Notes under the pieces: model-generated | What the model was told of the DNA's origin: nothing | The model's database searches: none | Seen by the model: only the letters and a program-made list of their open reading frames with translations | Part shown: positions 12,154-37,126 of the stretch, piece after piece | Layout of the letters: each line of letters starts with the position of its first letter | How positions within the stretch are numbered: the stretch's first letter is position 1 | Assembly: GCA_009729775.1 (NCBI GenBank) | Contig: GCA_009729775.1_4081.1 | DNA: 64,000 nucleotides | Origin: Escherichia coli | GTDB lineage: Bacteria; Pseudomonadota; Gammaproteobacteria; Enterobacterales; Enterobacteriaceae | Reading direction: 5' to 3' (one strand) | Translations under genes and position numbers: made by a program

Positions 12154-12704
12154 AATAGTTCCTTATACATATGATGTACTTTACAAATCTCATTATAGTA
12201 TTTCATATCAATGTCATTTGTATTAAAAACGGAAACAGACAATACTGCTAACTTATCAATTAAGTAATTATTATCGGCGTACTCTTTTAACTTATTGAAC
12301 ATATAGATGCATTTTATGCTTAATTCATCATGCAACACACTGTTCTGAAAAATATTCTCTTCAGTATTAGGAGATAAGTAATCTTCAATTATATACGATA
12401 AACTACTATCGCAATCTTTATAGATTGAAATTGATGGATGTAATGTGTCATACATTACACTAAACAGAACACCGTCATATGTGGATATTAAACTATTATT
12501 GGAAACAGTAGGATGATAATATTTCAGTACTGAAAACTTTGAACAATCAGTGCAGTAAAAATGATCCATCCCTCGACGACTTTCGTATGAGAATAGTTTA
12601 CTTGTATATTCAATCCCTTTGGTGCGACGGATTGTTTCATGCATTTCTGCACATTGCATTAAAATTACCATACGTTCAAACGCAATATCTAAATCATCGT
12701 ACAT
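12144..12704 (-). CDS. family A paralog
   Basis: core EENIFQNSVL. Confidence 0.7.
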   Translation of the reverse strand: MYDDLDIAFERMVILMQCAEMHETIRRTKGIEYTSKLFSYESRRGMDHFYCTDCSKFSVLKYYHPTVSNNSLISTYDGVLFSVMYDTLHPSISIYKDCDSSLSYIIEDYLSPNTEENIFQNSVLHDELSIKCIYMFNKLKEYADNNYLIDKLAVLSVSVFNTNDIDMKYYNEICKVHHMYKELLCQ

Positions 12705-12885
12705 AACGGATATCCTTCTTCAGCGAATTAATATATTCCAAAATAACTTGTTCCTGATATTGGGTTCCCAAGTACATCAGGACTTTCAACTCTTTGAATT
12801 CAGTACTATATGAGTCTGTTTGCATCATTCTAGTAGAATATATATTGAATAGTTTAGCAATGTCATTTTGGTCTATTATTTTCAT
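12694..12885 (-). CDS. family B paralog (small protein)
   Basis: 63 aa; motif YLGTQYQEQV; isolated inside family A array. Confidence 0.65.
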   Translation of the reverse strand: MKIIDQNDIAKLFNIYSTRMMQTDSYSTEFKELKVLMYLGTQYQEQVILEYINSLKKDIRYVR

Positions 12886-13084
12886 ATATTCTCTTCTGGA
12901 TTAGTTCCTGTAAGTGCTGAATATAACCCTTCATTGCAACATCCTGTTTGTTAGAGCCAACGAAGAACAAGAGCTTAAAGTCATGGTAATCCATTTTTGG
13001 TTTAGTAGTGAACCATATGTCCCACACTGCACTCACAGTTCTCATGTATTCAATTCGATTAAATGTTTTTGAATACTTCATCAA
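12863..13084 (-). CDS. family B-like small protein (divergent)
   Basis: 73 aa; FVGSNKQDVAMKGYIQHL. Confidence 0.5.
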   Translation of the reverse strand: MMKYSKTFNRIEYMRTVSAVWDIWFTTKPKMDYHDFKLLFFVGSNKQDVAMKGYIQHLQELIQKRIYENNRPK

Positions 13085-22167: not shown

Positions 22168-22838
22168 ATGTTATCCTTAAAAAAATCCAAATACTCTTCA
22201 TTGAAAGCATATGTATCATCTTTTTTGTTATGCACCACATAATCATAAAGAGCTATGAATGCAGGGATTATGATCTTACATGATTTATTATTGTATTTGT
22301 GGTACTCCAAATCAACGGTGTTCAATTTAGCAATAAGCATAGCAACAAAGATATCTTCATGGCGATGTACTGTACTGTACTGAAAATACTCATCCTCTCC
22401 AATATCTGGATGATATAACGGTATAACCAAATTATTACGAATTGACATCTTATATTTTTGTAATGCAGCTAAATGTATGAACCACAATCTATCTTCATTG
22501 AAATATGGAAAAATAATTTTGTCTGTGCTAATAAAAATTTCTTCATTTCGATTATTTGTCACAAGAGGTGCATACATTTTAATTTTTGCAGATCTAATAA
22601 TTAAATTAAAAATATAATGAATCTTATGAACTGCACTTGATGCATCTTCGTATGTACTTGGGATTATGAAACTCACTATATGTTCTCCTTTAAAATGATT
22701 ACACATGATAACAGCTTTGCACTTCTTTGTCAATACCAAAACGAAAAAAGCCCATATCTTACGATACAGGCGTGCTGGGAATGTTGATTTGGATTTCATT
22801 GTACAAATCATCAATATATAGACATGAAAAAAACACAC
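22164..22838 (-). CDS. family A paralog
   Basis: core EDEYFQYSTV; start probably at an internal Met (track start overlaps upstream gene by about 80 nt). Confidence 0.6.
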   Translation of the reverse strand: MCFFHVYILMICTMKSKSTFPARLYRKIWAFFVLVLTKKCKAVIMCNHFKGEHIVSFIIPSTYEDASSAVHKIHYIFNLIIRSAKIKMYAPLVTNNRNEEIFISTDKIIFPYFNEDRLWFIHLAALQKYKMSIRNNLVIPLYHPDIGEDEYFQYSTVHRHEDIFVAMLIAKLNTVDLEYHKYNNKSCKIIIPAFIALYDYVVHNKKDDTYAFNEEYLDFFKDNI

Positions 22839-24965: not shown

Positions 24966-25298
24966 AATTTACCTTATGGATTCGGGTGCAATAAATGATC
25001 TTGATAACTTAAATGCTCTTGTGATATTGCACTTAAATAATAACTAAAATTTTCAATACCACCCTTTAAATGTATATTGTAATACAACTTAATACTTACT
25101 AATAAAGAATCATTTAAATCATTTATTGCTTTTGTATTAACCACTTTCATTAATGTTCTTCTCTTAAAAATCGTTTGATAGCATAATCTAAATAAAATTC
25201 ATAACACATGCTATCTCTGTTCTTTATCCATATTTTGTAATCGGATTTTATATTACTTAACAAATAATTTGTATTAATTGTGTAATAATCTAATCGCC

Positions 25299-25688
25299 CT
25301 AATCGTGCCATTTAATAGGATACTCCTTTCCTTGTACTACATAAGATATAATCCATCCGTAATGAATAGGACTATTCTTTTCTCCTTTAGGAATAAAATA
25401 TAAAGATGTACTAGGATTATAACTGAATAAATCATTATTGTCAAATGTAAAATGAGATAACGTTATCTTCCTTGTACTTGGACTAATAACATTCTTAACA
25501 CCAAACACGGTATCTTGATATTTCTCTGAAAATTCAAACAATGCATCTGTAATTAAATCATTGAATTCTATACATAATGGTTTAAAAGAACCATCATTAT
25601 CTTTGAATTCCTTATATAAAGAGCTTCTTGTATTCAAAAGAAATATTACTTTTTTAAGATCCTGAACTATTTCTGGATTCATATTCAT
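25299..25688 (-). CDS. hypothetical protein
   Basis: 129 aa ORF. Confidence 0.5.
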   Translation of the reverse strand: MNMNPEIVQDLKKVIFLLNTRSSLYKEFKDNDGSFKPLCIEFNDLITDALFEFSEKYQDTVFGVKNVISPSTRKITLSHFTFDNNDLFSYNPSTSLYFIPKGEKNSPIHYGWIISYVVQGKEYPIKWHD

Positions 25689-25920
25689 TTATCTCATTCT
25701 GTATCTTAAGCATCAAAATTTGCATATTAATTTTTTGTACAAGGTGCTTGATAAATTTCTGTGCCATTTCTTCTTGTTCTTTTGTACCAAGATAAAATAA
25801 CAGATTAAATTCTGATAATCGCAAAGAAAAATCTTCATCACCACCCTTTAAACAAAAATCCCTGTACTTTGTAGCGTACAAATATTGGTTTACCTTTTTA
25901 TAATACCCTGTGTTTTGCAT
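25654..25920 (-). CDS. family B paralog
   Basis: motif FYLGTKEQEEMA. Confidence 0.6.
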   Translation of the reverse strand: MQNTGYYKKVNQYLYATKYRDFCLKGGDEDFSLRLSEFNLLFYLGTKEQEEMAQKFIKHLVQKINMQILMLKIQNEINEYESRNSSGS

Positions 25921-26108
25921 ACTATCTCCGTTCGCAACGAATTTATATAATAATGAACAAATTGTTCTTGTGAACGTGTTCCAAGAAAAATAAACATATC
26001 AAACTCTGTTGTTTTTAAATTCAATGCATCTTTTGTAAAATTCCTGTTGAATTCCCTGTACTTTTGGGTCTTCCATTCTTGATTAATTGTCTTGTATATC
26101 GATTTCAA
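25890..26108 (-). CDS. family B paralog
   Basis: motif IFLGTRSQEQFV. Confidence 0.6.
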   Translation of the reverse strand: MKSIYKTINQEWKTQKYREFNRNFTKDALNLKTTEFDMFIFLGTRSQEQFVHYYINSLRTEIVCKTQGIIKR

Positions 26109-26409
26109 TGATTCTCCCTGACATACCTTGTATTAGCTTATCATACATATCGAGCATCACTTTTTGAATATTAATTAGTACTGGCATCGTGCAAATATCA
26201 ATGTCGTATACTAAGCTGTACTGGAATAATTCATCTTCCTGCATTTGTACTAAATTAGGTAAAGGATAATTGTCTGCCTCTTCATCCTGATACTTGAAAT
26301 GCATAACACCATCCTTTTTGTACAAAAGAATGTCAATATCACCTAACTCTTCTGCATAACCAAAAATACATATACTCGATGTTTTTGCTATATTAAATTT
26401 CATATACAT
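26083..26409 (-). CDS. family A paralog
   Basis: core EDELFQYSLV. Confidence 0.7.
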   Translation of the reverse strand: MYMKFNIAKTSSICIFGYAEELGDIDILLYKKDGVMHFKYQDEEADNYPLPNLVQMQEDELFQYSLVYDIDICTMPVLINIQKVMLDMYDKLIQGMSGRIIEIDIQDN

Positions 26410-26411
26410 CC

Positions 26412-26753
26412 TTATACATAAATTTGATAGACATTTTGAACAAAATACTTTGGAAGACTACTATATGATATCATCTGCCTTTGTACTTCCTTCATCTCTT
26501 CCAATGTCAATCCCAAAGAATCATCGTGTACTATCATGTACTGAAACTCGTCTTCTTCAGAGATATCAAATAAATTCGGTACTGCAATTATATCAATACC
26601 TACCATCCAAAAAAAAGAATTATTACTTTTTCTGTACTCAAAAAAATTCAAAGAAGAACCACTCTGTAAATCAGATACCATAATGGAACATTCATCGTTA
26701 CGTACAATACAATTGAATTTACGCATTATCTCCACCTCTCTCCGTCTGTACAA
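26412..26753 (-). CDS. family A paralog
   Basis: core EEDEFQYMIV. Confidence 0.65.
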   Translation of the reverse strand: MYRRREVEIMRKFNCIVRNDECSIMVSDLQSGSSLNFFEYRKSNNSFFWMVGIDIIAVPNLFDISEEDEFQYMIVHDDSLGLTLEEMKEVQRQMISYSSLPKYFVQNVYQIYV

Positions 26754-26971
26754 GAGTACTGGTACGTTGTCGTTAGGGTAGGGACCATGTTTGTAATGGG
26801 CATGTTGTTAACAATAACCGTAACAGGCATAAGAATCGTCTCTTCTCTACTCTGTCCTGTCCTTGTGCAATTCATCTTTTGCATTTCATCTGAATCCATG
26901 AAATACAATACAAATGGTGCAATCCCAAGAACAATACACAAGACGATAAGGAAATTTAAAAAATTTAACAT
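26726..26971 (-). CDS. hypothetical small protein, possible membrane protein
   Basis: 81 aa; hydrophobic N-terminus MLNFLNFLIVLCIVLGIAPFVLYF. Confidence 0.4.
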   Translation of the reverse strand: MLNFLNFLIVLCIVLGIAPFVLYFMDSDEMQKMNCTRTGQSREETILMPVTVIVNNMPITNMVPTLTTTYQYSCTDGERWR

Positions 26972-27030
26972 AATTTTTACCCTATGATTAACGTTAGTGT
27001 ACTATATCAGTAATGAAAAGTACTATCAAG

Positions 27031-27417
27031 CTAGTATTGCACTGTTCTAATGAAAGTGCCTGAACTCATGGATTTAAGCTTATGAACCTCTTCCTGTATA
27101 CCCTTGATTAACCCTAAAGGTATAGGTACATCATGTACTAAGCTGTACTGAAAGTATTCTTCTTCAGATAAAGTACTAACATCTGGAACTCCAATTTTAG
27201 TTAGATAATCTTGATGTGTTGACCAATAAATTATATCTTCAGTAGAATTGTACTCCCCATATACTGAACAATATTGATGAATATCTTTCCTGTACCCTTG
27301 AGCAATAAAGAACTTATCTACTGCATTACCAGCATTAATAGAATTCACTTCGATTGTCACAGTACTTGAGCTTGTATAACTCTTAATACTCAACTGTGTG
27401 TTCTTCATAATCACCAT
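27031..27417 (-). CDS. family A paralog
   Basis: core EEEYFQYSLV. Confidence 0.7.
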   Translation of the reverse strand: MVIMKNTQLSIKSYTSSSTVTIEVNSINAGNAVDKFFIAQGYRKDIHQYCSVYGEYNSTEDIIYWSTHQDYLTKIGVPDVSTLSEEEYFQYSLVHDVPIPLGLIKGIQEEVHKLKSMSSGTFIRTVQY

Positions 27418-27727
27418 TAGGCTCCTGTTTAGATTCTTTCATTAGTACTATCATCTTATGTACTAATGGCATAGGGAACTCTAAATCCCATACTAATGAT
27501 TCCTGGAAGTATTCCTCTGGTGATAAAGTACTTAAATCTTTAATATCAACGTGCTTGTATATTTTATTTTCGTAATTAACAAATGATATATATAAATCAC
27601 TAACATAAGAATCATAGGTAATTGTGAATGGCTTACCCTTGTAATCCATTACATCTCTACATAGACTACTTTTGATATATGTATGTTCAAATGATTTATA
27701 TACCTTGAGTTGTATATTAGTTTTCAT
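27383..27727 (-). CDS. family A paralog
   Basis: core PEEYFQESLV. Confidence 0.7.
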   Translation of the reverse strand: MKTNIQLKVYKSFEHTYIKSSLCRDVMDYKGKPFTITYDSYVSDLYISFVNYENKIYKHVDIKDLSTLSPEEYFQESLVWDLEFPMPLVHKMIVLMKESKQEPNGDYEEHTVEY

Positions 27728-27992
27728 ATTTCTCTTTATTAGCTTGTTTGGTTTTATAGTGAATTAAATCTATTAATGTAATCAAGTACAACTTCAAAAA
27801 GTACTCTTGATGGTTCGTACCTAATGATACAAAGAATTTATGCTCATAAATTAAAACCTGTTTCACTTCAAAAGGACACTTAATCCTCTGTATAGGTTTA
27901 AGTAAATGGTAGTACTTGTATAATCTATTATGCATTTCTAATTCAGATAGTACTTTCATATTAAACACATACTCCATTAGCTGTAGCATCAC
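27717..27992 (-). CDS. family B paralog
   Basis: motif FVSLGTNHQEYF. Confidence 0.65.
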   Translation of the reverse strand: MMLQLMEYVFNMKVLSELEMHNRLYKYYHLLKPIQRIKCPFEVKQVLIYEHKFFVSLGTNHQEYFLKLYLITLIDLIHYKTKQANKEKYEN

Positions 27993-28182
27993 GTAAAGCT
28001 GTCAAATACTTCTGTACTGCTTGCTCTTGCTTATTTGTACCTAAAAGTATATACATCCATAATTCACTGTAATGTACATCTTGTGTATAAGGGTTGTTGT
28101 AACTTTTTGATAATATAGCATCAAATTCAGATGCATGAACCCTTGTGAACTTAAGCATATCTTGTTGTGTTATGATTCTCAT
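27961..28182 (-). CDS. family B paralog
   Basis: motif ILLGTNKQEQAV. Confidence 0.7.
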   Translation of the reverse strand: MRIITQQDMLKFTRVHASEFDAILSKSYNNPYTQDVHYSELWMYILLGTNKQEQAVQKYLTALRDATANGVCV

Positions 28183-28394
28183 ATCTTTTCCTGTATAAGC
28201 TTCTTAAGAATCTCAATATATGAATTAACAGTTCTCTCTTGATGCTGTGTTCCTAAGAGTGTCAGTACTATCATATCTGAACGCAAAAGATTTTTTTCAA
28301 GTTCACTTATATCAGTTCTTGAATCAAGTGCCATATATTTGTGATTATTCTTCCTGAATAGTGCCAAGTACTCTTGATTTGATATTTCCTTCAT
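28179..28394 (-). CDS. family B paralog
   Basis: motif LTLLGTQHQERTV. Confidence 0.7.
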   Translation of the reverse strand: MKEISNQEYLALFRKNNHKYMALDSRTDISELEKNLLRSDMIVLTLLGTQHQERTVNSYIEILKKLIQEKI

Positions 28395-28618
28395 AGTCTA
28401 TCCTTGATGCCATTTAAAAGTGCTCTAATATGCTCATTGACAAAACGCTCTTGGGAATCTGTGTTTAGAGTGAGAAGCATTCTTAAATCTGAACTTTTTA
28501 TATGATATTCTAAATCATTCTTTGATTCTCGCATAAGTTTCTGAAAGGATGAGAAGTGTAATCCCATGAGTTCAATGTATTCTGCTGTTCCTAGGGGTTT
28601 GTGTATATGTTTGTGCAT
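28391..28618 (-). CDS. family B paralog
   Basis: motif LTLNTDSQERFV. Confidence 0.65.
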   Translation of the reverse strand: MHKHIHKPLGTAEYIELMGLHFSSFQKLMRESKNDLEYHIKSSDLRMLLTLNTDSQERFVNEHIRALLNGIKDRL

Positions 28619-28830
28619 TTTAATTGTATTACCCTTTTGAGTGTATTAATGTAATTATACACATTGGCTTCTTGATAGTTAGTTCCTAGAGTAGCTTGAA
28701 CGTAGATTTCATTTAACTTAATGATTTTATCAGTATCTGGTAGTTTTGATGTGTTAATGGCAAATAACTTCAAAAACAGTCCATTTATGATTGTTAGGTA
28801 TTCTTCTTCTGTAATGATTTTCATTTGCAT
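28591..28830 (-). CDS. family B paralog
   Basis: motif ATLGTNYQEANV. Confidence 0.7.
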   Translation of the reverse strand: MQMKIITEEEYLTIINGLFLKLFAINTSKLPDTDKIIKLNEIYVQATLGTNYQEANVYNYINTLKRVIQLKCTNIYTNP

Positions 28831-29036
28831 TTTCTCAGTACTGATTCTTTAAGTTCATTGATGTAGTCCTCAATGTATTGCTCTTGTAAGTTAGTTCCAA
28901 CATATAAAAGAACTCTTAAATCGGCTCTAAGTACTTCTTTGTCATCATCATCTATATCAGACAGTGTTATGTTTAAGAATTTACTTGCATTCTCTATAAG
29001 TAATATTACTGAATCACCTTCGCTTAAAATTTTCAT
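28821..29036 (-). CDS. family B paralog
   Basis: motif LYVGTNLQEQYI. Confidence 0.7.
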   Translation of the reverse strand: MKILSEGDSVILLIENASKFLNITLSDIDDDDKEVLRADLRVLLYVGTNLQEQYIEDYINELKESVLRKCK

Positions 29037-29244
29037 AATCTCTTTTTGCTTTCCTCGCCAAAAGGTACATATACGATTCTTCGTATTGTGCTTGATAGTT
29101 TGTGTTTAAGAGTCGAAACAACTTCTGTTCTGCTAGAACGAGTTGCTTATCTTCATAACAACGATAGCGTATCAACTTTTTGTATTCGATGTTGATTACA
29201 TCCATTACTATAAGCCCATGTTCATCATCTGTCAAGTGTTTCAT
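29014..29244 (-). CDS. family B paralog
   Basis: motif RLLNTNYQAQY. Confidence 0.65.
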   Translation of the reverse strand: MKHLTDDEHGLIVMDVINIEYKKLIRYRCYEDKQLVLAEQKLFRLLNTNYQAQYEESYMYLLARKAKRDYENFKRR

Positions 29245-29470
29245 GTATCTTTTCCTTAATAGTGATTTTAAGAGATTTAATTATACGTTCAACGTGATAC
29301 TCCTGTCTATCAGTTCCAAGAAGGTATGGTAGTGCTTGGAATAGAGCTTCCGCATTCTTTTCCTCTGGGGTTTGGTTTGGATCATTAGGAAGTTGATTGG
29401 CATATCTCTTGGCACTAACTAATCTCTCGACGTATTCATTATATGTTAAGTATATCATTTCATTTTGCAT
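29225..29470 (-). CDS. family B paralog
   Basis: motif YLLGTDRQEYHV; near-identical to next gene. Confidence 0.7.
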   Translation of the reverse strand: MQNEMIYLTYNEYVERLVSAKRYANQLPNDPNQTPEEKNAEALFQALPYLLGTDRQEYHVERIIKSLKITIKEKIHETLDR

Positions 29471-29696
29471 TTACTTTTTCCTTAATAGTAATTTTAAGAT
29501 ATTTAATTATACGTTCAATGTGATACTCTTGCCTATCAGTTCCAAGAAGGTATGGTAATCTTTGGAATAAAACTTCTGCACTCCTTTCTGCTGGGGTTTG
29601 GTTTGTGTTGTGAGGAAGTTTATTTGTAAGTCTTTTGGATTTATCTAGTCTTTCTGTTAACTCATCATGTGTTAAGTATATCATTTCCTTTTGCAT
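29460..29696 (-). CDS. family B paralog
   Basis: motif YLLGTDRQEYHI; near-identical to previous gene. Confidence 0.7.
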   Translation of the reverse strand: MQKEMIYLTHDELTERLDKSKRLTNKLPHNTNQTPAERSAEVLFQRLPYLLGTDRQEYHIERIIKYLKITIKEKVNAK

Positions 29697-29923
29697 TTAA
29701 TGTTCCTTACGTAAATTGTCTGGATTAAACAATCAATCCACGTTTGAATATATTGGTTTTGATACTGTGTGCCTAAAAGACTCTGCATTTTAAACTCTGC
29801 TTCAAGTTCATATCTCTTTTCTATAGAAAAGCTTAAATGACCATATTCCCTATCGTATCTTCTATGAGCTTCGCCAAGTCTATCAAATCTTTCTGATAAT
29901 CTGATGTTATTAATTTTATTCAT
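29681..29923 (-). CDS. family B paralog
   Basis: motif SLLGTQYQNQYI. Confidence 0.7.
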   Translation of the reverse strand: MNKINNIRLSERFDRLGEAHRRYDREYGHLSFSIEKRYELEAEFKMQSLLGTQYQNQYIQTWIDCLIQTIYVRNIKCKRK

Positions 29924-30210
29924 CGCTCAGTACACCTTAGTGGACGGGTCATTTGATAAAAGTACAGCTTACCTCTGATTTCCATTAGTAATTCATTTAA
30001 TACGCGTTCTACCTCTTGTTCTTGATAGTTCGTGCCTAACAATGCACCCATCTTTAACTCACGCATCATAATCATCTTCTTACTGTGTTGAATTTCTGGG
30101 TTGTGATAGATTGTATTACGTTTAAGAGTAATTTTTGCCATACGCTCGGTATATTCATCTTTACTTAAATTAATCATTTTCATGTTAATTACCCTTACAT
30201 TTATTTTCAA
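29920..30210 (-). CDS. family B paralog
   Basis: motif ALLGTNYQEQEV; start may be internal Met. Confidence 0.65.
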   Translation of the reverse strand: MKINVRVINMKMINLSKDEYTERMAKITLKRNTIYHNPEIQHSKKMIMMRELKMGALLGTNYQEQEVERVLNELLMEIRGKLYFYQMTRPLRCTER

Positions 30211-30415
30211 TACTATTCATGAGTTCTATAAGATAGTTTTCTACCTTACCTTCCTGATAGTTAGTCCCTAGGAAGTTGCACAACACGGCTTCTATAATTT
30301 TGATTTTCCTGATATCCGACTTCAATCTTTTGTTATTGAATATTTGAATCCTTATATCTCTGGATGCATTTAAACGTTTTTGATAGTCATGGTAAGTTAA
30401 ATGAATCATTTTCAT
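30185..30415 (-). CDS. family B paralog
   Basis: motif NFLGTNYQEGKV. Confidence 0.7.
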   Translation of the reverse strand: MKMIHLTYHDYQKRLNASRDIRIQIFNNKRLKSDIRKIKIIEAVLCNFLGTNYQEGKVENYLIELMNSIENKCKGN

Positions 30416-30630
30416 TTACGTTTAACCTCTCGCTGGAGGGCATCAATTAACATTAGTACAGCATTCTCTTGATAGTTTGTTCCTAAGACTGAAAGCATCT
30501 TTATCTCATTTACTAAAATCAACTTCTTTGAGGGTTCAATAATGTGACTATCATAAACGGCCTTACGTGCTGGATAAGTTTTCGCCAGTATAACATAAAA
30601 TTCGTCTTTACTTAAATTAATCATTTGCAT
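30412..30630 (-). CDS. family B paralog
   Basis: motif SVLGTNYQENAV. Confidence 0.7.
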   Translation of the reverse strand: MQMINLSKDEFYVILAKTYPARKAVYDSHIIEPSKKLILVNEIKMLSVLGTNYQENAVLMLIDALQREVKRK

Positions 30631-30839
30631 TTACTTTTAACCTCTTTCTGTAGAGCGTCAATCCATAGATCTACATACATTTGTTGATAGTTTGTGTCTA
30701 TTAGTGCACCTACATAGAGTTCAGCTACCATTGCGTGCTTTATGTCAATAGGGATGCTCTTATCAGATTGAATCTTTCTCCTTCTGCTTCCACATGTTTT
30801 CAGGAGCCTGATGTATTCAAAACCTTGTAAATTTCTCAT
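30621..30839 (-). CDS. family B paralog
   Basis: motif ALIDTNYQQMYV. Confidence 0.65.
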   Translation of the reverse strand: MRNLQGFEYIRLLKTCGSRRRKIQSDKSIPIDIKHAMVAELYVGALIDTNYQQMYVDLWIDALQKEVKSKCK

Positions 30840-31051
30840 ATTTTGGATACCACCTTGTTACGTAAGGAACTTAATAATACGTCAGTGTAGATGTTTTGAT
30901 AGTTTGTTCCTACGAATGCACCCAACTTCATTTCAGCTATTATAACACATTTGTCCTCTTGTGCAATAGACTTGTCTAAAGAAATACTAACAACTTTCCC
31001 TCTTATAGTTTGTAACCTCCAATGATACTGATACTCATTAAGGATTATCAT
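30836..31051 (-). CDS. family B paralog
   Basis: motif AFVGTNYQNIYT. Confidence 0.7.
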   Translation of the reverse strand: MIILNEYQYHWRLQTIRGKVVSISLDKSIAQEDKCVIIAEMKLGAFVGTNYQNIYTDVLLSSLRNKVVSKI

Positions 31052-31298
31052 TCTCTCGTCTCCAGATTTCGGTTCTCATGTGTTGGCAGTGTGCATCAAT
31101 ATATTGCTCTATCGATCTGGCGATTGCTGTTTTATCAGTGCCTGTCATCAGTACAAGCATCTCTGCCTCACTATGAATTAAACGCATGATATCATAGGGT
31201 AATATTTCAGATACTGTATCATAGTGTTTGTGTGTCAGTGTCTGCAATAGTTTACAATACATTTTGTGATTTAGTCTTTGTCGCATTGTTTCTTCCAT
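31038..31298 (-). CDS. family B paralog (divergent)
   Basis: motif region LMTGTDKTAIA, same size and position in array. Confidence 0.5.
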   Translation of the reverse strand: MEETMRQRLNHKMYCKLLQTLTHKHYDTVSEILPYDIMRLIHSEAEMLVLMTGTDKTAIARSIEQYIDAHCQHMRTEIWRRENDNP

Positions 31299-31543
31299 TC
31301 TCTTCTGGCTTGACGGGTTTTTTCTGATATTTCGTTTCTCAATGCAGAGATATATCGTAGAGTGAACAGTTCTTGATAGTTAGTCCCTATGAATTTATTA
31401 AGATATACATCAGCGTTGACGATATCAGCTTCACGGGAATTATAAAGTTTATTGTTCGTGCGAAGGGTGTTTAGAAGAGAGAAGAGGGCAGTCTGATACT
31501 CAGTGCTTGATAAAGTTTTCATATTTTTCCACAATTCGTTCAT
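31271..31543 (-). CDS. family B paralog
   Basis: motif KFIGTNYQELFT. Confidence 0.65.
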   Translation of the reverse strand: MNELWKNMKTLSSTEYQTALFSLLNTLRTNNKLYNSREADIVNADVYLNKFIGTNYQELFTLRYISALRNEISEKTRQARREWKKQCDKD

Positions 31544-31757
31544 TTAGTTTTATCTGTATAAGATCCATTAGTTGTTCAAGATAATCGGTACAATATTTCT
31601 CTTGATATTGGGTTCCCACAAAGTACAGCAACCATAGCTCATGAACTTTAACTTTCATCTCGTTCCATGAAAGTGCATCGTCATCGTAGATTACTCTTGC
31701 TTCTGGGGTGAGCTTTCTAACTCTAATTGAATATTCATCGTCAGTTAAGTGTTTCAT
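31500..31757 (-). CDS. family B paralog
   Basis: motif YFVGTQYQEKYC. Confidence 0.65.
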   Translation of the reverse strand: MKHLTDDEYSIRVRKLTPEARVIYDDDALSWNEMKVKVHELWLLYFVGTQYQEKYCTDYLEQLMDLIQIKLNERIVEKYENFIKH

Positions 31758-31972
31758 TTACATTTATCCCTTATTAGATTTGTGAGGGCAACTATGTGTG
31801 CAACAACATACTCTTCCTGAAAGTTCGTCCCCAGTACAGCCATCATGCGTATATCGGTGGTGTTTATCCTGTGTTCCCTTACACATAAACCTTCTTTGTG
31901 AGGAAGTGTAAAATATTTGTTTATTGCAGCAATGACAATTTTATTCTTCTCGGTGATACTTAAATGTTTCAT
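31754..31972 (-). CDS. family B paralog
   Basis: motif AVLGTNFQEEYV. Confidence 0.7.
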   Translation of the reverse strand: MKHLSITEKNKIVIAAINKYFTLPHKEGLCVREHRINTTDIRMMAVLGTNFQEEYVVAHIVALTNLIRDKCK

Positions 31973-32181
31973 AGTTTACTCCTGATATAATTCTGAAGTG
32001 CAATTAAGTATTCCCCTACATAATACACCTGAAAGTCTGTATCAAGGAATGCACCCATAAGTAAATCTTTTTCTAATACCCTTGATAAGTTAAGGTCTGC
32101 ATTTGAAAGGTATATAAGTAAGATTTCACCCTGTGCGGAATTGAAACGTTTCTTATATTCTTCTGGTGTTAAAAAAATCAT
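31969..32181 (-). CDS. family B paralog
   Basis: motif AFLDTDFQVYYV; close paralog of next gene. Confidence 0.65.
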   Translation of the reverse strand: MIFLTPEEYKKRFNSAQGEILLIYLSNADLNLSRVLEKDLLMGAFLDTDFQVYYVGEYLIALQNYIRSKL

Positions 32182-32393
32182 AATTTGCTCCTGATATATT
32201 TCTCAAGAGATGACAAATACTTTTCCTCATAATACTTCTGATAGTCTGTTCCTAAGAATGCACCCAATAGTATATCATTTTCCAATACCTCGGCTAAGTT
32301 TAAATCAGAAGTCTCTTCGTATATTATGAGGATTTCAAGTTGTCTGGCAGCGATGCGTTCAGTATATTGATATGAGTTTTCTATAATAATCAT
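32178..32393 (-). CDS. family B paralog
   Basis: motif AFLGTDYQKYYE. Confidence 0.7.
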   Translation of the reverse strand: MIIIENSYQYTERIAARQLEILIIYEETSDLNLAEVLENDILLGAFLGTDYQKYYEEKYLSSLEKYIRSKL

Positions 32394-32599
32394 AATTTAC
32401 TCTTTATATCTTCTATTAAAAATCGAATCCATTCTTCAACATAATCTTCCTGATGGTTTGTGTTCAGTACAGCCAACATGCGGATCTCTGCTCTTGCAAC
32501 TTCAATTTCAGTTTTAGGAAGGTCTTTGCTGATATCCACCATTAAGTCCATGTATTTCAAGATAAGTCCGAATGATTGGGTTCGTGTTATAGTTTTCAT
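32390..32599 (-). CDS. family B paralog
   Basis: motif AVLNTNHQEDYV. Confidence 0.65.
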   Translation of the reverse strand: MKTITRTQSFGLILKYMDLMVDISKDLPKTEIEVARAEIRMLAVLNTNHQEDYVEEWIRFLIEDIKSKL

Positions 32600-32796
32600 T
32601 GTTTCCTCGTGGACAATGTTTTATTTTTCAATGTATCCACATATTTCGTTACCCATGCATCCTGATAGTTAGTTCCCAATGTAATCAAAAGGTATAACTC
32701 CATTCGTTCTACGTGTGAGTCTGTATTATAAATCTTTGTGAAGTTTTTACGTAACAGTGCTTGATATTCTTTTTCGGTTAATTTACGCATTTTCAT
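32596..32796 (-). CDS. family B paralog
   Basis: motif ITLGTNYQDAWV. Confidence 0.7.
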   Translation of the reverse strand: MKMRKLTEKEYQALLRKNFTKIYNTDSHVERMELYLLITLGTNYQDAWVTKYVDTLKNKTLSTRKQ

Positions 32797-32990
32797 AGTT
32801 TACTCGTTACATCTTCAATTAAATACCAAATCCAATCGTTGACATACCTTTCCTGAAAGTTAGTTCCAATGAATAGTGCCATAATTAATTCACGCTTATA
32901 GGCAATACCACGGTCATGGGACTTATACATTATCATAGCCATGTTATTGATAAGTCTTTCGTGGTGTTCTGCTTGAGTTAAAATACGCAT
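32793..32990 (-). CDS. family B paralog (first gene of array)
   Basis: motif LFIGTNFQERYV; start set at internal Met (MRILTQ) with AAGGGAG RBS; the track start at 33020 would lie inside the promoter. Confidence 0.6.
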   Translation of the reverse strand: MRILTQAEHHERLINNMAMIMYKSHDRGIAYKRELIMALFIGTNFQERYVNDWIWYLIEDVTSKL

Positions 32991-33020
32991 AGGGACTCCC
33001 TTAAAATTAATATCAATCAT

Positions 33021-33048
33021 ATTTTATACGATTTGTATAAAAAGTCAA
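33021..33048 (-). promoter_or_regulatory. sigma70-like promoter for the family B array (TTGACT-16-TAAAAT)
   Basis: read on reverse complement immediately upstream of first family B gene. Confidence 0.45.
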
Positions 33049-33239
33049 TAACATTTTATTCGTAATACCCCTTTATCGAAGTCGCTAAGGTTACCCGCCC
33101 TTTAGCCCCCTACGCATTTTGCCATAGTCCAATCCCTTTTATTTCAAAAAAGTCAAGGGATTACCTATGCATTTTTTTAACGCATAATTTTAAAAACGCC
33201 TTGACTTTTTTCTGAATCAGTACTAGATCCCTTTACGCA

Positions 33240-33449
33240 TTAATCCTTCGTTACGCTAACGATTATCTGTGTATCCCCGTAGTCCTGCCATACTTCCACG
33301 CCATCCGTCGCCCTGGTTAGTCGTGCTGTCATCTGCTTAACAGTCTTAGGCTTTAGTGGAACCTGTTGCAGTACTGTACGCATAGCATCACTGACGTTAT
33401 CATGTACGCCAGCAATAGTACCTAGAACGCTGTATACTGTATAGAACAT
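33240..33449 (-). CDS. hypothetical protein
   Basis: 69 aa ORF. Confidence 0.5.
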   Translation of the reverse strand: MFYTVYSVLGTIAGVHDNVSDAMRTVLQQVPLKPKTVKQMTARLTRATDGVEVWQDYGDTQIIVSVTKD

Positions 33450-33517
33450 ATGTATGCCCTCCTGATATAGTTAAGGCCGCTAGAGAGCGGCCTATGATGT
33501 TTGGTGATGTGTAATGC

Positions 33518-33919
33518 TTATAGTCCTAAGATAGTGCGTGCTTCGTTACGTTCCGTCCATAGCTGCATGATGTGAGCAAGTAAGTCCTTACTAATGTATC
33601 CGGTGTTCATAGCTTCACGGATAGATACATCATAAGCACCGAACCCCGTGCGAACGATACGCACATCATTTAGGTTAGTGTTATAGATACCGCCAAGATC
33701 AACGGCTTCGAATACTGCATCAACTGAATACTCATTGTTACCATCGTTGAAGTTTTCTAGTGCAATAGTATTGGATACCGCCCAACGTTTGCAGTTTCCA
33801 ATGATGCGGCATTGTTCCGGTTGGAGAGTGCCATTACTTACAGCGTACTCCAGTGCATCTTTACCAAAAGTCCGAGCCAGTACTAAAACGTCAGCGAAGG
33901 AAGTGATTGAGAAGGTCAT
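33518..33919 (-). CDS. hypothetical protein
   Basis: start at MTFSITSF with GGAG RBS; track MVLP extension is translation of 5' hairpin. Confidence 0.6.
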   Translation of the reverse strand: MTFSITSFADVLVLARTFGKDALEYAVSNGTLQPEQCRIIGNCKRWAVSNTIALENFNDGNNEYSVDAVFEAVDLGGIYNTNLNDVRIVRTGFGAYDVSIREAMNTGYISKDLLAHIMQLWTERNEARTILGL

Positions 33920-33939
33920 GATAAAACTCCTTAATTTAG

Positions 33940-34010
33940 GAGGGAGAACCATTTCCCCCTCTCTATGTAAAACATTATACTTGATTCTAAGTACTATGCA
34001 AGTACTTTTT
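33940..34010 (-). promoter_or_regulatory. early promoter cassette: TTGCAT-16-TATAAT followed by GC-rich 5' hairpin
   Basis: reverse complement reads TTGCAT..TATAAT then GGGGGAAATGGTTCTCCC stem-loop then RBS. Confidence 0.55.
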
Positions 34011-34335
34011 ACATTTTAATACCTGGATTCAGGTAGCGGTGAGATCCGTATTCTGGATCTGTTTCGGTCCAGTACTGTAAATCTATAGTACCCTTTGCGT
34101 TAATCTTGTCTACTAGCTTATTCATCTTAGTGTAGACTACTTCGCTAGGGATGTAGTGTAATCCTTTATTATAGAAGTAGTGGTTAGCTTCACTATCGTT
34201 TAAGATATAGCGTGCACCGTTTGCGGTTTGTGCAACAATGAAAGAGTATTCTACTTCCCGATCATTACCATCAACAGTAATGCGGTCGAAATTGGTACGG
34301 ATGAAAGCTTTAACGATAGCGATTGAAGTACTCAT
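34009..34335 (-). CDS. hypothetical protein
   Basis: 108 aa ORF. Confidence 0.55.
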   Translation of the reverse strand: MSTSIAIVKAFIRTNFDRITVDGNDREVEYSFIVAQTANGARYILNDSEANHYFYNKGLHYIPSEVVYTKMNKLVDKINAKGTIDLQYWTETDPEYGSHRYLNPGIKM

Positions 34336-34469
34336 GGTGAATCTCCTAACTTTGTGGGCCGTCGCACCATTGCCGCCCTACGAGATACATTATTGCAGTA
34401 CTGATATACTTTGTCAATACTTTTTTTGAAATAGTTTTGAGTACTGGAATTACATCCACCAGCAGATAG

Positions 34470-34590
34470 TTACTCACCGTTATGAACTATCTTACAGATA
34501 CTTCTCTGCACCCTGTGGGCTAGTTTTTGTCTATGCGTATATAATAGCAAAGGGACTGACCGGAGTCAATCCCTTTTTTTATTCTTTTTT
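34470..34590. repeat. repeated intergenic composite element (GCACCCTGTGGGCTAG core and AAGGGACTGACCGGAGTCAATCCCTTTTTT hairpin)
   Basis: near-identical copies at about 36390-36510, 39760-39870, 43790-43920. Confidence 0.6.
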
Positions 34591-34591
34591 G

Positions 34592-34792
34592 TTAGATGAT
34601 TCTCCAATCTTCTACCAGGATTTTAATATACCGTACCAGTGATTCGAGTGATTCCACTTCCCGATAATCGGTAGCCGTTTGCACGGAACAAGTACAGCCG
34701 ATCAAGCCATTGCCAAGCTCTTTGATCTGTACATCGATGCAGTTGGCTTTTGCTTCATTCAGTACTGCAACCAATTCGTTAGCGATTGACAT
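34592..34792 (-). CDS. hypothetical protein
   Basis: 66 aa ORF with upstream promoter cassette. Confidence 0.5.
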   Translation of the reverse strand: MSIANELVAVLNEAKANCIDVQIKELGNGLIGCTCSVQTATDYREVESLESLVRYIKILVEDWRII

Positions 34793-34810
34793 AATGTTTT
34801 ACTCCTAAAG

Positions 34811-34875
34811 GTGCGGGAGAACTATTCCCCCGCTCTATGTAAAACATTATACATTATCTTGTAGTACTGTCAAAT
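34811..34875 (-). promoter_or_regulatory. early promoter cassette (TTGACA-16-TATAAT) and 5' hairpin
   Basis: reverse complement of intergenic region. Confidence 0.55.
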
Positions 34876-34880
34876 AGTTT

Positions 34881-35138
34881 TTATGAGATATCTTCGATAT
34901 AGTCGGCCCATGTCATTTGTTCAGTACTATCGAGTGCACCAGGATTATTTGGATCAAACCATTCGCCATCCCCTAAGTACATTGCAGCGGATACCGCTTT
35001 ATAGCCATTATAGGCGTTATTCCACTGCATAGCACGATAGATATGGCCTTTAATTGGTGTTAGTACTGGTAACGTTTTATGGTCTTCTACGTAGGCTGTA
35101 GCGATTGGATTTACCCGATACGTTTTGAACTGTTCCAT
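34881..35138 (-). CDS. hypothetical protein
   Basis: 85 aa ORF. Confidence 0.5.
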   Translation of the reverse strand: MEQFKTYRVNPIATAYVEDHKTLPVLTPIKGHIYRAMQWNNAYNGYKAVSAAMYLGDGEWFDPNNPGALDSTEQMTWADYIEDIS

Positions 35139-35212
35139 GATGTTTCCCCTTTAGTTAGTAAAGTTAATACAACAGTACTATCACGCATTGTCAATAGTAC
35201 TGAAATAAAACT

Positions 35213-35437
35213 TTAGATTAGATTATTGATGCCGTTGATGGTAGACTCGCTTTCTTCTTTCTCCCATTGGCGGTAATACTTCCATGCTTCATGATAGGTG
35301 GCGATCAGTTCATCTTTTTGATCCTGAGTACATGCCAGTACTGAATCACTGTAAGCGGTGTTATAGATAGAATCAAATGATTTCTTCTCTTCTGCCAGGG
35401 TAGCTACTTCCCGCATCAGTTCATCAAAGTTAGCCAT
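35213..35437 (-). CDS. hypothetical protein
   Basis: start at MANFDELM; track extension covers 5' hairpin. Confidence 0.55.
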   Translation of the reverse strand: MANFDELMREVATLAEEKKSFDSIYNTAYSDSVLACTQDQKDELIATYHEAWKYYRQWEKEESESTINGINNLI

Positions 35438-35454
35438 TTTAGTACTCCTTATTA

Positions 35455-35981: not shown

Positions 35982-36002
35982 AATTTTGTTTCCTTTTAGT
36001 AT

Positions 36003-36062: not shown

Positions 36063-36065
36063 TAC

Positions 36066-37095: not shown

Positions 37096-37126
37096 TGTGT
37101 TGACTCCTTGAGTTAATGAAACTATA

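What the first reader, a model, noticed from the sequence alone, without database searches (positions are those of the whole stretch)
27717..33020. Array of 24 contiguous small paralogs (family B), 28 in the window
Twenty-four back-to-back minus-strand genes of about 70 aa each carry a central [LV]GT[ND][YFHR]QE..V..[YW]I..L motif. They appear to be driven from one promoter at about 33021-33048 and are translationally coupled. Adjacent pairs such as 29225..29470 with 29460..29696, and 31969..32181 with 32178..32393, are near-identical, indicating ongoing duplication. Four further members sit inside the family A array at 12694-13084 and 25654-26108.
Basis: seen in the sequence. Interest (0 to 1): 0.85.

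Follow-up and report, generated by a model that had tools for sequence, protein, structure and literature searches.

The report
Tandem small-protein array in jumbo coliphage
A giant E. coli virus carries 24 back-to-back genes for diverged copies of one tiny three-helix protein, placed as the first operon after the genome's terminal repeat; they are real, conserved, non-virion genes of unknown function, most likely a repertoire of early host-manipulating binders.

Summary
Window 27717-32990 (minus strand) holds 24 contiguous genes of 65-87 aa from one family, and the window holds exactly 28 members (HMM >=60 bits; next hit 5.8 bits). The window is an Asteriusvirus jumbo coliphage (121Q/PBECO4 group). 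The family is phrog_4148, function unknown. It is found only in this phage group: 96 clusters among 1.84 billion representative proteins.

AlphaFold gives a three-helix bundle (pLDDT 97.9) with no specific PDB relative. The conserved 'GT-x-x-Q' and 'T/S-x-x-E' motifs look like helix caps that staple the fold, while the surfaces are hypervariable.

Orthologs are syntenic in relatives. Copy number is 23-29, dN/dS is 0.23 on scaffold columns and 0.45 on variable columns, and alleles are mosaic.

The array starts 98 nt after the ~21-kb direct terminal repeat (boundary at 33088), behind a conserved sigma70-like promoter (33048-33021). All 23 junctions overlap or abut, and the starts have strong Shine-Dalgarno sites.

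- The 'near-identical' pairs are only 68% and 51% identical in protein.
- The first gene starts at 32990, not 33020.
- The regex is a consensus, not a strict pattern.

Best reading, inferred: an immediate-early repertoire of small binding proteins for host takeover or counter-defence. Tandem arrays in 121Q were noted once (Hua 2017) but never characterised.

The parts
27717..32990 (-). The array: 24 contiguous family-B (phrog_4148) genes, 65-87 aa each
   Evidence: ORF list. HMM 60-86 bits each. PHROG match E 1e-9 to 1e-24. Junctions and Shine-Dalgarno sites.
32793..32990 (-). Gene 1 (65 aa). True start is 32990, not 33020
   Evidence: SD GGGAG, -7.9 kcal/mol. ATG 33020 is AGG in UB. 65-aa calls in L006 and fEgEco12 g057.
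32596..32796 (-). Gene 2 (66 aa)
32390..32599 (-). Gene 3 (69 aa)
32178..32393 (-). Gene 4 (71 aa); 51% aa identical to gene 5
31969..32181 (-). Gene 5 (70 aa)
31754..31972 (-). Gene 6 (72 aa)
31500..31757 (-). Gene 7 (85 aa); the member modelled with AlphaFold2
   Evidence: pLDDT 97.9, three helices. Alleles 43-98% identical among 36 phages.
31271..31522 (-). Gene 8 (83 aa; refined start 31522)
31038..31286 (-). Gene 9 (82 aa; refined start 31286); divergent motif MTGTDKT plus a 6-residue insertion
30836..31051 (-). Gene 10 (71 aa)
30621..30839 (-). Gene 11 (72 aa)
30412..30630 (-). Gene 12 (72 aa); no ortholog in 121Q, 100% identical in UB and G17
30185..30415 (-). Gene 13 (76 aa)
29920..30183 (-). 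Gene 14 (87 aa; refined start 30183)
29681..29923 (-). Gene 15 (80 aa)
29460..29696 (-). Gene 16 (78 aa); one copy of the youngest duplicate pair
   Evidence: 68% aa / 80.6% nt identical to gene 17
29225..29470 (-). Gene 17 (81 aa); the other copy of the youngest duplicate pair
29014..29244 (-). Gene 18 (76 aa)
   Evidence: Its ortholog, as the second half of the fusion P0001, folds the same way with pLDDT >90.
28821..29036 (-). Gene 19 (71 aa, pI 4.4)
28591..28830 (-). Gene 20 (79 aa)
28391..28618 (-). Gene 21 (75 aa)
28179..28394 (-). Gene 22 (71 aa)
27961..28182 (-). Gene 23 (73 aa)
27717..27959 (-). Gene 24 (80 aa; refined start 27959)
25654..26108 (-). Outlying pair of family-B genes (88 and 72 aa) inside the downstream gene block
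   Evidence: Leave-out HMM 19.5 and 38.2 bits. Orthologs in all relatives.
12694..13084 (-). Second outlying pair of family-B genes (63 and 72-73 aa)
   Evidence: Leave-out HMM 43.8 and 23.0 bits
33021..33048 (-). Sigma70-like promoter of the array (TTGACT-16-TAAAAT; TATTAT in some relatives)
   Evidence: Conserved in 5/5 genomes. It is the last of a series of 20 near-consensus minus-strand promoters.
32994..33001 (-). Shine-Dalgarno site (AAGGGAG) of gene 1
33088..33089 (.). Inner boundary of the ~21-kb direct terminal repeat (...GGGTAACCT | TAGCGACTTCG...). The array is the first transcription unit of the unique region.
   Evidence: The restriction-verified fEgEco12 repeat end (20,993; PMC13070987) maps to window 33088. 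The vB_Ec-M-J annotation agrees.
33143..33216 (-). Nested inverted repeat AAAAAAGTCAAGG...CCTTGACTTTTTT; a terminator-like insulator upstream of the promoter
   Evidence: DNA fold z=-2.75. The 220-nt leader is 95% identical in 5 genomes.
29239..29690 (.). The only DNA-level tandem repeat in the array: 2 x 226 nt, about 80% identical
22750..22771 (-). First convincing intrinsic-terminator-like hairpin downstream; the probable end of the transcription unit
   Evidence: 9-bp stem plus T6. G17 has an ARNOLD-annotated terminator at the same place.

Best explanation
Family B is a lineage-specific multigene family (phrog_4148) of real, translated, non-virion proteins of about 70 aa. Each folds into the same small three-helix bundle.

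The conserved residues are fold staples, not an active site. They comprise an N-terminal beta-bridge to the 'L-G-T' loop, two helix N-capping boxes (T/S-x-x-E before helix 1 and T-x-x-Q before helix 3), a Gly that ends helix 2, and the hydrophobic core. Almost every exposed position differs between paralogs, yet each paralog's own sequence is held by purifying selection.

The 24 genes form the first operon of the unique genome, 40 nt inside the left direct terminal repeat. They are read from a conserved host-type sigma70 promoter and translated by coupling or re-initiation across overlapping stop and start codons.

Most likely mechanism (inferred). Host RNA polymerase transcribes the block as soon as the leading genome end enters the cell. 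This delivers roughly equimolar amounts of about 24 different mini-binders. Each docks onto a different host protein, either a host-takeover target or an anti-phage defence component.

The repertoire was built by local tandem duplication and divergence. It is now maintained by birth-and-death and by exchange of alleles between co-circulating jumbo phages.

Shown: family, fold prediction, selection, position, promoter and junction anatomy, restriction to Asteriusvirus, absence from the virion proteome.
Inferred: early timing, coupling, and the binder or counter-defence role.
For: Real genes:
- 28 members score >=60 bits against 5.8 bits for the next hit.
- Concatenated orthologs give dN/dS 0.34-0.38 against four genomes.
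- Independent gene calls in other assemblies recover the same genes.
- SD sites at the starts have median -5.6 vs -0.9 kcal/mol, p=4e-11.

Fold:
- AF2 gives pLDDT 97.9 and pTM 0.82, with helices at 6-24, 31-45 and 52-84 and a bridge between residues 2 and 49.
- A second member, as the second half of P0001, gives the same fold with pLDDT >90.
- Other members in BFVD match with TM 0.65-0.93.

Scaffold versus surface:
- Low-entropy columns are mostly hydrophobic or cap residues, and 35 of 71 columns have entropy >=3 bits.
- dN/dS is 0.23 on scaffold columns, 0.45 on variable columns and 0.93 on the tails.
- pI ranges from 4.4 to 9.7.

Position and expression signals:
- The terminal-repeat end is at 33088, the promoter at 33048-33021 and the start at 32990.
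- The leader is 95% conserved.
- There are 26 strong sigma70-like sites on the minus strand against 3 on the plus strand.
- An upstream terminator-like hairpin is present, and the next strong terminator-like site is at 22771-22750.

Non-structural: the phAPEC6 array is gp467c-489c, and no virion MS protein lies between gp347 and gp549.

Arms-race-like dynamics:
- Copy number is 23-29, with truncated copies in some genomes.
- Orthologs are 43-100% identical in a mosaic pattern.
- One member shows discrete allele classes of 98, 79, 63, 58 and 43% identity across 36 phages, while neighbouring terminal-repeat genes are 93-100% identical.
- dN/dS is twice that of the terminal-repeat-side genes (0.17).

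Kind: terminal, variable, early multigene families with host-range or immune-evasion roles are established in ASFV and poxviruses, and host-takeover modules sit in or near the terminal repeats of phages T5 and SPO1 (general knowledge).
Against: - No target, phenotype or expression datum exists. No transcriptome or proteome of infected cells was found for any Asteriusvirus.
- No site class has dN/dS >1, so diversifying selection is not demonstrated.
- Most paralogs are ancient and stably inherited, which fits fixed housekeeping roles as well as an arms race.
- No structural or sequence similarity to any known anti-defence protein was found. The best Foldseek PDB E-value is 2, and T4 Vs.4/Acb2 scores only prob 0.18.
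- The family-A side of the window has the same dN/dS (0.35), so the elevated rate is regional rather than specific to this family.
- Tight coupling and equimolar output would also suit subunits of one assembly.
- Which genome end enters the cell first is not known.
Confidence: 0.45

Rival explanations
1. Subunits of one hetero-oligomeric assembly. The paralogs co-assemble, for example helix-bundle modules stacking into a scaffold or coat used early in infection. Translational coupling would ensure matched stoichiometry.
For: All 23 junctions overlap or abut and the starts have strong SD sites. The fold and core are identical across members. Every paralog is individually conserved. Natural fusions of two modules (P0001) and of a module with another domain (P0189) exist.
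Against: Copy number varies from 23 to 29, and individual members are missing or truncated in viable phages. Net charge ranges from strongly acidic to strongly basic. Overlapping genes are the norm throughout this genome block, not only in this array. AF2 of the two-module fusion gave no confident packing (pTM 0.52), though with poor alignment depth for one half.
Confidence: 0.15
2. Small DNA- or RNA-binding regulators or nucleoid-remodelling proteins. This would be a lineage-specific expansion of transcription factors, as proposed for the ~35-copy zinc-ribbon family of Bacillus phage G.
For: 14 of 28 members are basic, with pI >9 for many. Three-helix bundles are a common nucleic-acid-binding architecture. 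By eye the E-x6-LGT-x2-QE-x2-V-x2-YI-x2-L stretch recalls sigma70 region 4 / LuxR helix-turn-helix motifs. The phage G precedent is described in PMC7824862.
Confidence: 0.15
3. Largely dispensable duplicated DNA. The array would be tandem duplicates that expanded the genome to fill a larger capsid (the Hua et al. ratchet) and that persist with little function.
For: Hua et al. 2017 propose tandem duplication as a route of jumbo-genome expansion and cite an array in 121Q. Copy number is variable and truncated copies occur. dN/dS is twice that of the neighbouring early genes. The tails evolve nearly neutrally, at 0.93.
Against: dN/dS is 0.23-0.45 on folded positions, well below 1. In the window all 28 copies are intact with SD sites and start codons preserved. 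Orthologs are syntenic across the genus despite 24% identity between paralogs, so the copies have been kept for a long time. The promoter and leader are 95% conserved.
Confidence: 0.12
4. Weapons in phage-phage conflict, such as superinfection exclusion or inhibition of co-infecting phages and satellites, rather than anti-host factors.
For: The features are the same as for the best explanation: early position, diversified surfaces and mosaic alleles. Asteriusvirus genomes are frequently carried in E. coli isolates (PMC12768965), where encounters with other phages are likely.
Against: There is no direct evidence. Known exclusion proteins are mostly membrane proteins, whereas these are soluble (GRAVY -0.9 to +0.1) with no hydrophobic segments.
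Confidence: 0.1
5. The ORFs are not genes. They would be chance ORFs, or a non-coding repeat that happens to be open.
For: None beyond the absence of direct expression data.
Against: HMM separation is 60 vs 5.8 bits. There is codon-level purifying selection, high-confidence fold prediction and SD enrichment with p=4e-11. No Rfam hit was found.
Confidence: 0.02

Closest known systems
phrog_4148 (PHROGs v4), 'unknown function'
   Same: All eight members tested match over nearly the full length (E 7e-9 to 2e-24). This is the same family.
   Different: The PHROG entry carries no function, structure or genomic-context description. The array organisation, fold, selection pattern and position at the terminal-repeat boundary are added here.
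Tandem array noted in phage 121Q by Hua et al. 2017 (mBio, PMC5646251)
   Same: It is the same phage genus. [quoted passage not shown]
   Different: That is one sentence with no coordinates, family definition or analysis. It may refer to this array (23 contiguous copies in 121Q), to the neighbouring larger families, or to both. The copies are not 'very similar' (median 24% identity).
African swine fever virus multigene families (MGF100/110/360/505) and poxvirus terminal host-range / Bcl-2-like families
   Same: They are tandem paralog arrays next to terminal repeats of a large dsDNA virus. Copy number varies between isolates. The fold is conserved while sequence diverges strongly. They are non-structural. 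(The properties of these families are from general knowledge.)
   Different: They are eukaryotic viruses with unrelated folds and sequences. Their roles in interferon antagonism and host range are shown experimentally; nothing equivalent is shown here. This is a resemblance of kind only.
Host-takeover modules at phage genome ends: T5 pre-early genes in the left terminal repeat; SPO1 gp37-gp60 in the terminal redundancy
   Same: They are clusters of many small early genes at the genome end, read by host RNA polymerase from strong sigma70-type promoters. The window's terminal-repeat region, with 19 consensus promoters, fits this pattern, and the array follows it directly.
   Different: Those modules consist of unrelated genes, each mostly with its own promoter. 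They are not one paralog family in a single 24-gene coupled operon, and family B lies just outside the repeat.
~35-copy zinc-ribbon expansion in Bacillus phage G (Iyer et al. 2021, PMC7824862)
   Same: It is a lineage-specific expansion of a very small protein in a jumbo phage with no demonstrated function.
   Different: The fold is different (a zinc ribbon versus a three-helix bundle with no conserved Cys or His), the phage lineage is different, and a DNA-binding role was proposed there.
Phage anti-defence loci (anti-CRISPR operons, Ocr/Arn, Acb/Tad/Gad proteins)
   Same: They encode small, early, fast-evolving proteins, often clustered, that are frequently orphan folds and act by binding host immune proteins.
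   Different: There is no sequence or fold match to any solved example. Such loci usually hold a few unrelated genes, not two dozen paralogs. No anti-defence activity was tested.

Membership tests
phrog_4148 | Significant full-length match to the family HMM | tested here: met
   8/8 members tested, E 7e-9 to 2e-24, covering profile positions about 1-72 of 74. The fusion proteins P0189 and P0186 also match.
Family B as defined in the window | About 70-aa protein with N-terminal M-K-x-L-[T/S]-x-x-E-Y and central L-G-T-x-x-Q-E-x-x-V-x-x-Y-I-x-x-L at fixed alignment columns | tested here: met
   28 ORFs at >=60 bits against 5.8 bits for the next hit. T, Q and L columns are >=90% identical. The leave-out test recovers the 4 outliers.
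Helix-turn-helix DNA-binding proteins (sigma70 region 4 / LuxR-like) | HTH fold recognisable by structure comparison, or a sequence match to HTH families | tested here: not met
Known anti-defence proteins with solved structures (Acr, Acb2/Vs.4, Tad, Ocr and others) | Fold or sequence similarity to a characterised member | tested here: not met
   T4 Vs.4 appears only at E=3.5, prob 0.18, TM 0.43. There are no PDB sequence hits.
Known anti-defence proteins | Inhibition of a defence system in vivo | not testable with these tools
   This requires plating the phage, or strains expressing single members, against defence-system libraries.
Bacterial defence-system proteins (PADLOC-DB) | Consistent match of family members to a defence protein model | tested here: not met
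   Seven different models each matched by only 1 of 28 members, best E 6e-4. This is noise.
Terminal variable multigene family of a large dsDNA virus (kind, e.g. ASFV MGF) | Tandem paralogs adjacent to the terminal repeat | tested here: met
   The array starts 98 nt after the terminal-repeat end.
Terminal variable multigene family of a large dsDNA virus (kind, e.g. ASFV MGF) | Copy number and allele content vary between closely related isolates | tested here: met
   23-29 contiguous copies in 9 loci, with truncated copies. Ortholog identity is a mosaic of 43-100%.
Terminal variable multigene family of a large dsDNA virus (kind, e.g. ASFV MGF) | Determines host range or immune evasion | not testable with these tools
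   This needs deletion mutants and host panels.
Translationally coupled operon | Stop and start codons overlap or abut, with an SD inside the upstream gene and no internal terminators | tested here: met
   Junctions are -28 to +1 nt, 11/23 are ATGA, and 21/24 SD sites are <=-3.3 kcal/mol. On the coding strand inside the array there is only one terminator-like site, with a 5-bp stem (28134-28118).
Translationally coupled operon | Downstream translation depends on upstream translation | not testable with these tools
   This needs reporter fusions with upstream stop mutations.
Immediate-early genes read by host RNA polymerase | Conserved sigma70-type promoter upstream | tested here: met
   TTGACT-16-TAAAAT/TATTAT is conserved in 5/5 genomes. 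It is part of a strand-biased series of 26 sites on the minus strand against 3 on the plus strand. The generic scan alone is not above chance (37 found vs 36.5 expected).
Immediate-early genes read by host RNA polymerase | Transcript present within minutes of infection | not testable with these tools
   No Asteriusvirus transcriptome was found in the literature library.
Virion structural proteins | Detection in purified particles | tested here: not met
   None of phAPEC6 gp467c-gp489c is among the 62 MS-identified virion proteins, although a 4.7-kDa protein was detected (PMC7247149).

The most novel reading that the evidence does not exclude
The array is a germline-encoded repertoire of about 25 mini-binders built on one three-helix scaffold with hypervariable surfaces. 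It is injected first and expressed as a single coupled operon. Each member neutralises a different host defence or takeover target, and cassette exchange between jumbo phages re-tunes host range. This would be a phage counterpart of the ASFV and poxvirus terminal multigene families, and a natural library of minimal protein binders.
Probability: 0.3. Interest if true: 0.75.

Novelty: new member of a known kind. Interest (0 to 1): 0.5.

Why it matters
More than 80% of the genes of Asteriusvirus phages are unannotated. These phages are globally common, are often carried in E. coli isolates, and are candidates for therapy.

This array accounts for about 25 of those unknown genes in one stroke. It provides a family definition, a confident fold, corrected gene starts, a promoter, and a precise position as the first operon after the terminal repeat.

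If the members are diversified binders of host factors or defence proteins, they would be a compact source of new anti-defence activities and of host-range determinants for a therapeutic phage group. They would also give bacterial viruses a clear example of the terminal multigene-family strategy known from large eukaryotic viruses.

If the array instead proves dispensable, it becomes a test case for the idea that jumbo genomes grew by tandem duplication.

Tried and rejected
- Defence or anti-defence libraries. PADLOC gave only scattered single-member noise.
- Structural relatives in viral models (BFVD). Only other members of the same family were found. AFDB50 was unavailable.
- Wider homologs. 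The exhaustive profile search found only 96 clusters, and all sampled ones were on ~350-kb Escherichia phage contigs.
- Rosetta-stone hint from fusions. P0189 has a family-B domain plus about 205 aa, and P0186 is similar. Their extensions have no Pfam or PHROG function and no homolog in the window.
- Module-module packing from the natural two-module fusion P0001. AF2 gave pTM 0.52 with the first half poorly supported, so the result is uninformative.
- Positive selection. No column class exceeds dN/dS 1.
- Long-range decay of similarity along the array. None was found beyond immediate neighbours.
- Non-coding RNA. There are no Rfam hits in the window.
- Presence in complete RefSeq E. coli genomes. 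None was found.
- Literature. No paper describes the family. The only mentions are Hua 2017's one sentence and a remark in the phAPEC6 paper.

Full report
**Source of the window.** A 7-kb query around the finding matches 42 phage records, all ~350-kb Escherichia, Salmonella or Klebsiella jumbo phages. The best match is phage UB at 90.7% identity, followed by PBECO4 and 121Q. Their taxonomy is Caudoviricetes; Asteriusvirus. One protein of the array is 100% identical to a protein on 344-kb contigs labelled E. coli. That fits the report that 189 Asteriusvirus genomes sit in E. coli assemblies (PMC12768965). No complete RefSeq E. coli genome carries the region.

- The ORF list shows 24 back-to-back minus-strand ORFs from 27717 to 33020.
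- A profile of the family, run on all six-frame ORFs of the window, separates 28 members (60-86 bits) from everything else (<=5.8 bits).
- A profile built from the 24 array genes alone still finds the four outlying genes at 19.5-43.8 bits.
- The motif sits in the same alignment columns in all members. T, Q and one L are >=90% identical, and G, E, V, Y/W and I are majority residues.
Read literally, it matches 1 of 28 sequences in full, while the core pattern sits at the same alignment column in 27 of 28.
- The 'near-identical' pairs are not near-identical. They are 68% aa / 80.6% nt and 51% aa / 69.8% nt identical. Median pairwise identity in the array is 24%.

**Gene starts and junctions.**
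- The -10 hexamer of the only good promoter ends at 33021, so ATG 33020 cannot be translated from that transcript.
- The next in-frame ATG, at 32990, has an AAGGGAG Shine-Dalgarno site (-7.9 kcal/mol) and aligns with the N-terminus of the other members.
- In phage UB the 33020 codon is AGG, while the 32990 start and its SD are invariant. fEgEco12 and another assembly annotate the 65-aa form.
- Four other starts were refined in the same way.
- With the refined starts the proteins are 65-87 aa. All 23 junctions lie between -28 and +1 nt, and 11 are ATGA.
- SD pairing at the starts is far stronger than at other ATGs of the region (median -5.6 vs -0.9 kcal/mol, p=4e-11).
- This is the anatomy expected for translational coupling. 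Coupling itself is not shown.

**Are they genes?**
- Orthologs in 121Q, UB, G17 and vB_Ec-M-J are syntenic. Concatenated, they give dN/dS of 0.34-0.38.
- Splitting codons by family column gives 0.23 for paralog-conserved columns, 0.36 for intermediate columns, 0.45 for paralog-variable columns and 0.93 for the unaligned tails.
- So both the shared scaffold and each paralog's own surface are under purifying selection, and no class shows dN/dS >1.
- For comparison, neighbouring early genes on the terminal-repeat side give 0.17, and the larger genes downstream give 0.35.

**What are the proteins?**
- There is no Pfam, NCBIfam, PADLOC or PDB sequence match.
- PHROGs places them in phrog_4148, 'unknown function'.
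- An exhaustive profile search of 1.84 billion representative proteins finds only 96 clusters. A word-indexed search finds 102 proteins. Every sampled hit lies on ~350-kb Escherichia phage contigs.
- tblastn of one member hits 36 phage records, all from Escherichia or Salmonella phages of this group.
- AlphaFold2 with the 28 paralogs as alignment gives a very confident model (pLDDT 97.9, pTM 0.82). It has helices at 6-24, 31-45 and 52-84, plus a beta-bridge between residue 2 and the T of the G-T motif.
- A second member shows the same fold, as do family members in BFVD (TM 0.65-0.93).
- Read against the model, the conserved residues are fold staples: the N-terminal strand pairing with the L-G-T loop, a Gly ending helix 2, T-x-x-Q before helix 3 and T/S-x-x-E before helix 1, and the hydrophobic core. 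The two T/S motifs are classical N-capping boxes, which is an inference from general helix-capping rules.
- Exposed positions are hypervariable (35 of 71 columns have entropy >=3 bits). Net charge runs from -6.5 to +5.7, with pI 4.4-9.7.

**Genomic position.**
- In vB_Ec-M-J the annotated direct terminal repeat ends about 100 nt before the first family-B gene.
- In fEgEco12 the 20,993-bp repeat was confirmed by restriction digests (PMC13070987). The repeat end maps to window 33088.
- The order on the coding strand is: last repeat gene (33449-33240), a nested inverted repeat resembling a terminator (33216-33143, z=-2.75), the repeat boundary (33088), the promoter (33048-33021), the SD, and ATG 32990.
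- This 220-nt leader is 95% identical in five genomes, which is more conserved than the array's own coding sequence.
- The repeat side of the window carries 19 near-consensus sigma70 promoters on the minus strand. Window-wide the count is 26 on the minus strand against 3 on the plus strand. The array's promoter is the last of that series.
- The first convincing terminator-like hairpin downstream is at 22771-22750, where G17 has an annotated terminator. The unit is therefore probably about 10 kb and includes about 14 further genes.

**Evolutionary dynamics.**
- Contiguous copy number is 23 (121Q), 24 (the window and three near-identical assemblies), 26 (vB_Ec-M-J), 27 (UB) and 29 (G17, phAPEC6). 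Truncated copies occur in 121Q and G17.
- Adjacent members are more alike than random pairs (28.5% vs 24.2%, p=0.0004), but there is no longer-range decay. The only DNA-level repeat is the 2 x 226-nt pair.
- Ortholog identity is mosaic. Some members are 100% identical to 121Q, others to UB or G17, and some are only 43-65% identical.
- One member shows discrete allele classes across 36 phages.
- The window's terminal-repeat side is closest to 121Q (dS 0.086), while its downstream side is closest to UB and G17 (dS 0.08). Recombination breakpoints therefore fall within or next to the array.

**Not structural.** In phAPEC6 the array is gp467c-gp489c. None of these is among the 62 virion proteins found by mass spectrometry, although a 4.7-kDa protein was detected.

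**Interpretation.** The best-supported reading is an immediate-early, host-polymerase-transcribed, translationally coupled operon. It would encode a repertoire of small three-helix proteins that share a scaffold and differ in surface, most plausibly protein binders for host takeover or counter-defence.
- The family, fold, selection, position and signals are shown.
- Timing, coupling and the binder role are inferred.
- The rivals are a hetero-oligomeric assembly, nucleic-acid-binding regulators, largely dispensable duplicates, and phage-phage conflict. The data do not exclude any of them.
- 'Not genes' is effectively excluded.

**Comparison with the literature.**
- Hua et al. [quoted passage not shown] The phAPEC6 paper echoes this.
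- No paper defines or analyses this family.
- The phenomenon, a lineage-specific tandem expansion of small proteins near the end of a large viral genome, is a known kind. Examples are the ASFV and poxvirus multigene families, the phage G zinc ribbons, and the T5 and SPO1 terminal host-takeover modules.
- This is a new, uncharacterised member of that kind. It is moderately interesting as it stands, and more so if the binder-repertoire reading holds.

Noticed in passing
window 33021-33239: The non-coding leader between the last terminal-repeat gene and the array is 95% identical in five genomes, more conserved than the flanking coding sequence. It contains the inner boundary of the ~21-kb direct terminal repeat (33088) and a nested inverted repeat (about 33216-33143). 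It may hold signals for terminal-repeat generation or packaging as well as a terminator and promoter.
   Followed up: partly
window 33100-52600, minus strand: There are 19 near-consensus sigma70 promoters (mostly TTGACA-16-TATAAT with A-rich upstream tracts), each ahead of one or two small ORFs. Window-wide the count is 26 on the minus strand against 3 on the plus strand. The terminal repeat looks like a dense immediate-early region, comparable to the T5 pre-early region.
   Followed up: partly
window about 43960-43800, 39906-39746, 36547-36387, 34624-34464 (minus strand): There are four copies of a ~110-nt cassette. Each has a promoter TTGACT-17-TATTAT whose -35 lies inside the palindrome GGGATTGACTCCGGTCAGTCCC, followed by a conserved transcribed segment (...AGCCCACAGGGTGCATAAGTGTATCTATTATA...). 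It could be an operator-controlled promoter family or small-RNA genes. No Rfam match was found.
   Followed up: partly
window 56118-63443, plus strand: A third tandem paralog family: six ~360-450-aa proteins with RCC1-like repeats (phrog_4219, 'regulator of chromosome condensation', E about 1e-110; paralogs about 28% identical). By position and size they correspond to the ~41-kDa 'DNA condensation proteins' detected in phAPEC6 virions.
   Followed up: partly
window 1-27727, minus strand: The block downstream of the array ('family A' and others, 100-225 aa) is equally tightly packed. All sampled genes fall in PHROGs of unknown function with no Pfam hits. Their dN/dS of about 0.35 equals that of family B. 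Some show presence/absence and 28-60% identity among relatives.
   Followed up: partly
window 20292-38840 compared with L001-L004: The genome is a mosaic. The terminal-repeat side is closest to 121Q (dS 0.086 against 0.33-0.35 to UB, G17 and vB_Ec-M-J). The downstream side is closest to UB and G17 (dS 0.08 against 0.17 to 121Q). Recombination breakpoints therefore lie in or next to the array.
   Followed up: partly
L002 6486-7295 (phage UB, AXC36995.1 = P0195, 269 aa; same 90% cluster as P0189): This is a family-B module fused to a ~205-aa C-terminal region with no Pfam or PHROG function and no homolog in the window. It occurs on 13 contigs. P0186 (122 aa) is a similar extended form. These are possible domain-fusion clues to a partner function.
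   Followed up: partly
P0001 (154 aa, ENA contig of 3149 nt): A read-through fusion of two adjacent family-B modules; the second half is 99% identical to window gene 29014-29244. It could be a sequencing artefact or a natural fusion.
   Followed up: partly
L001 12782-12931 (121Q gp321); L003 10768-10926 (G17_00606): Truncated family-B copies of about 50 aa that retain only the C-terminal two helices. They indicate gene decay within the array in some relatives.
   Followed up: no
window 29207-29235, minus strand: An 11/12 sigma70-like site (TTGACA-17-TATAGT) lies inside the array. Its -35 is formed by the codons for the conserved N-terminal H-L-T of gene 29014-29244. It is possibly an internal promoter, or possibly chance.
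   Followed up: no
window 41213-41890; L006 1-545: The terminal-repeat early region of relatives encodes a DksA/TraR-type zinc-finger protein and a GNAT acetyltransferase among the small ORFs. These are among the few early genes there with recognisable domains.
   Followed up: no
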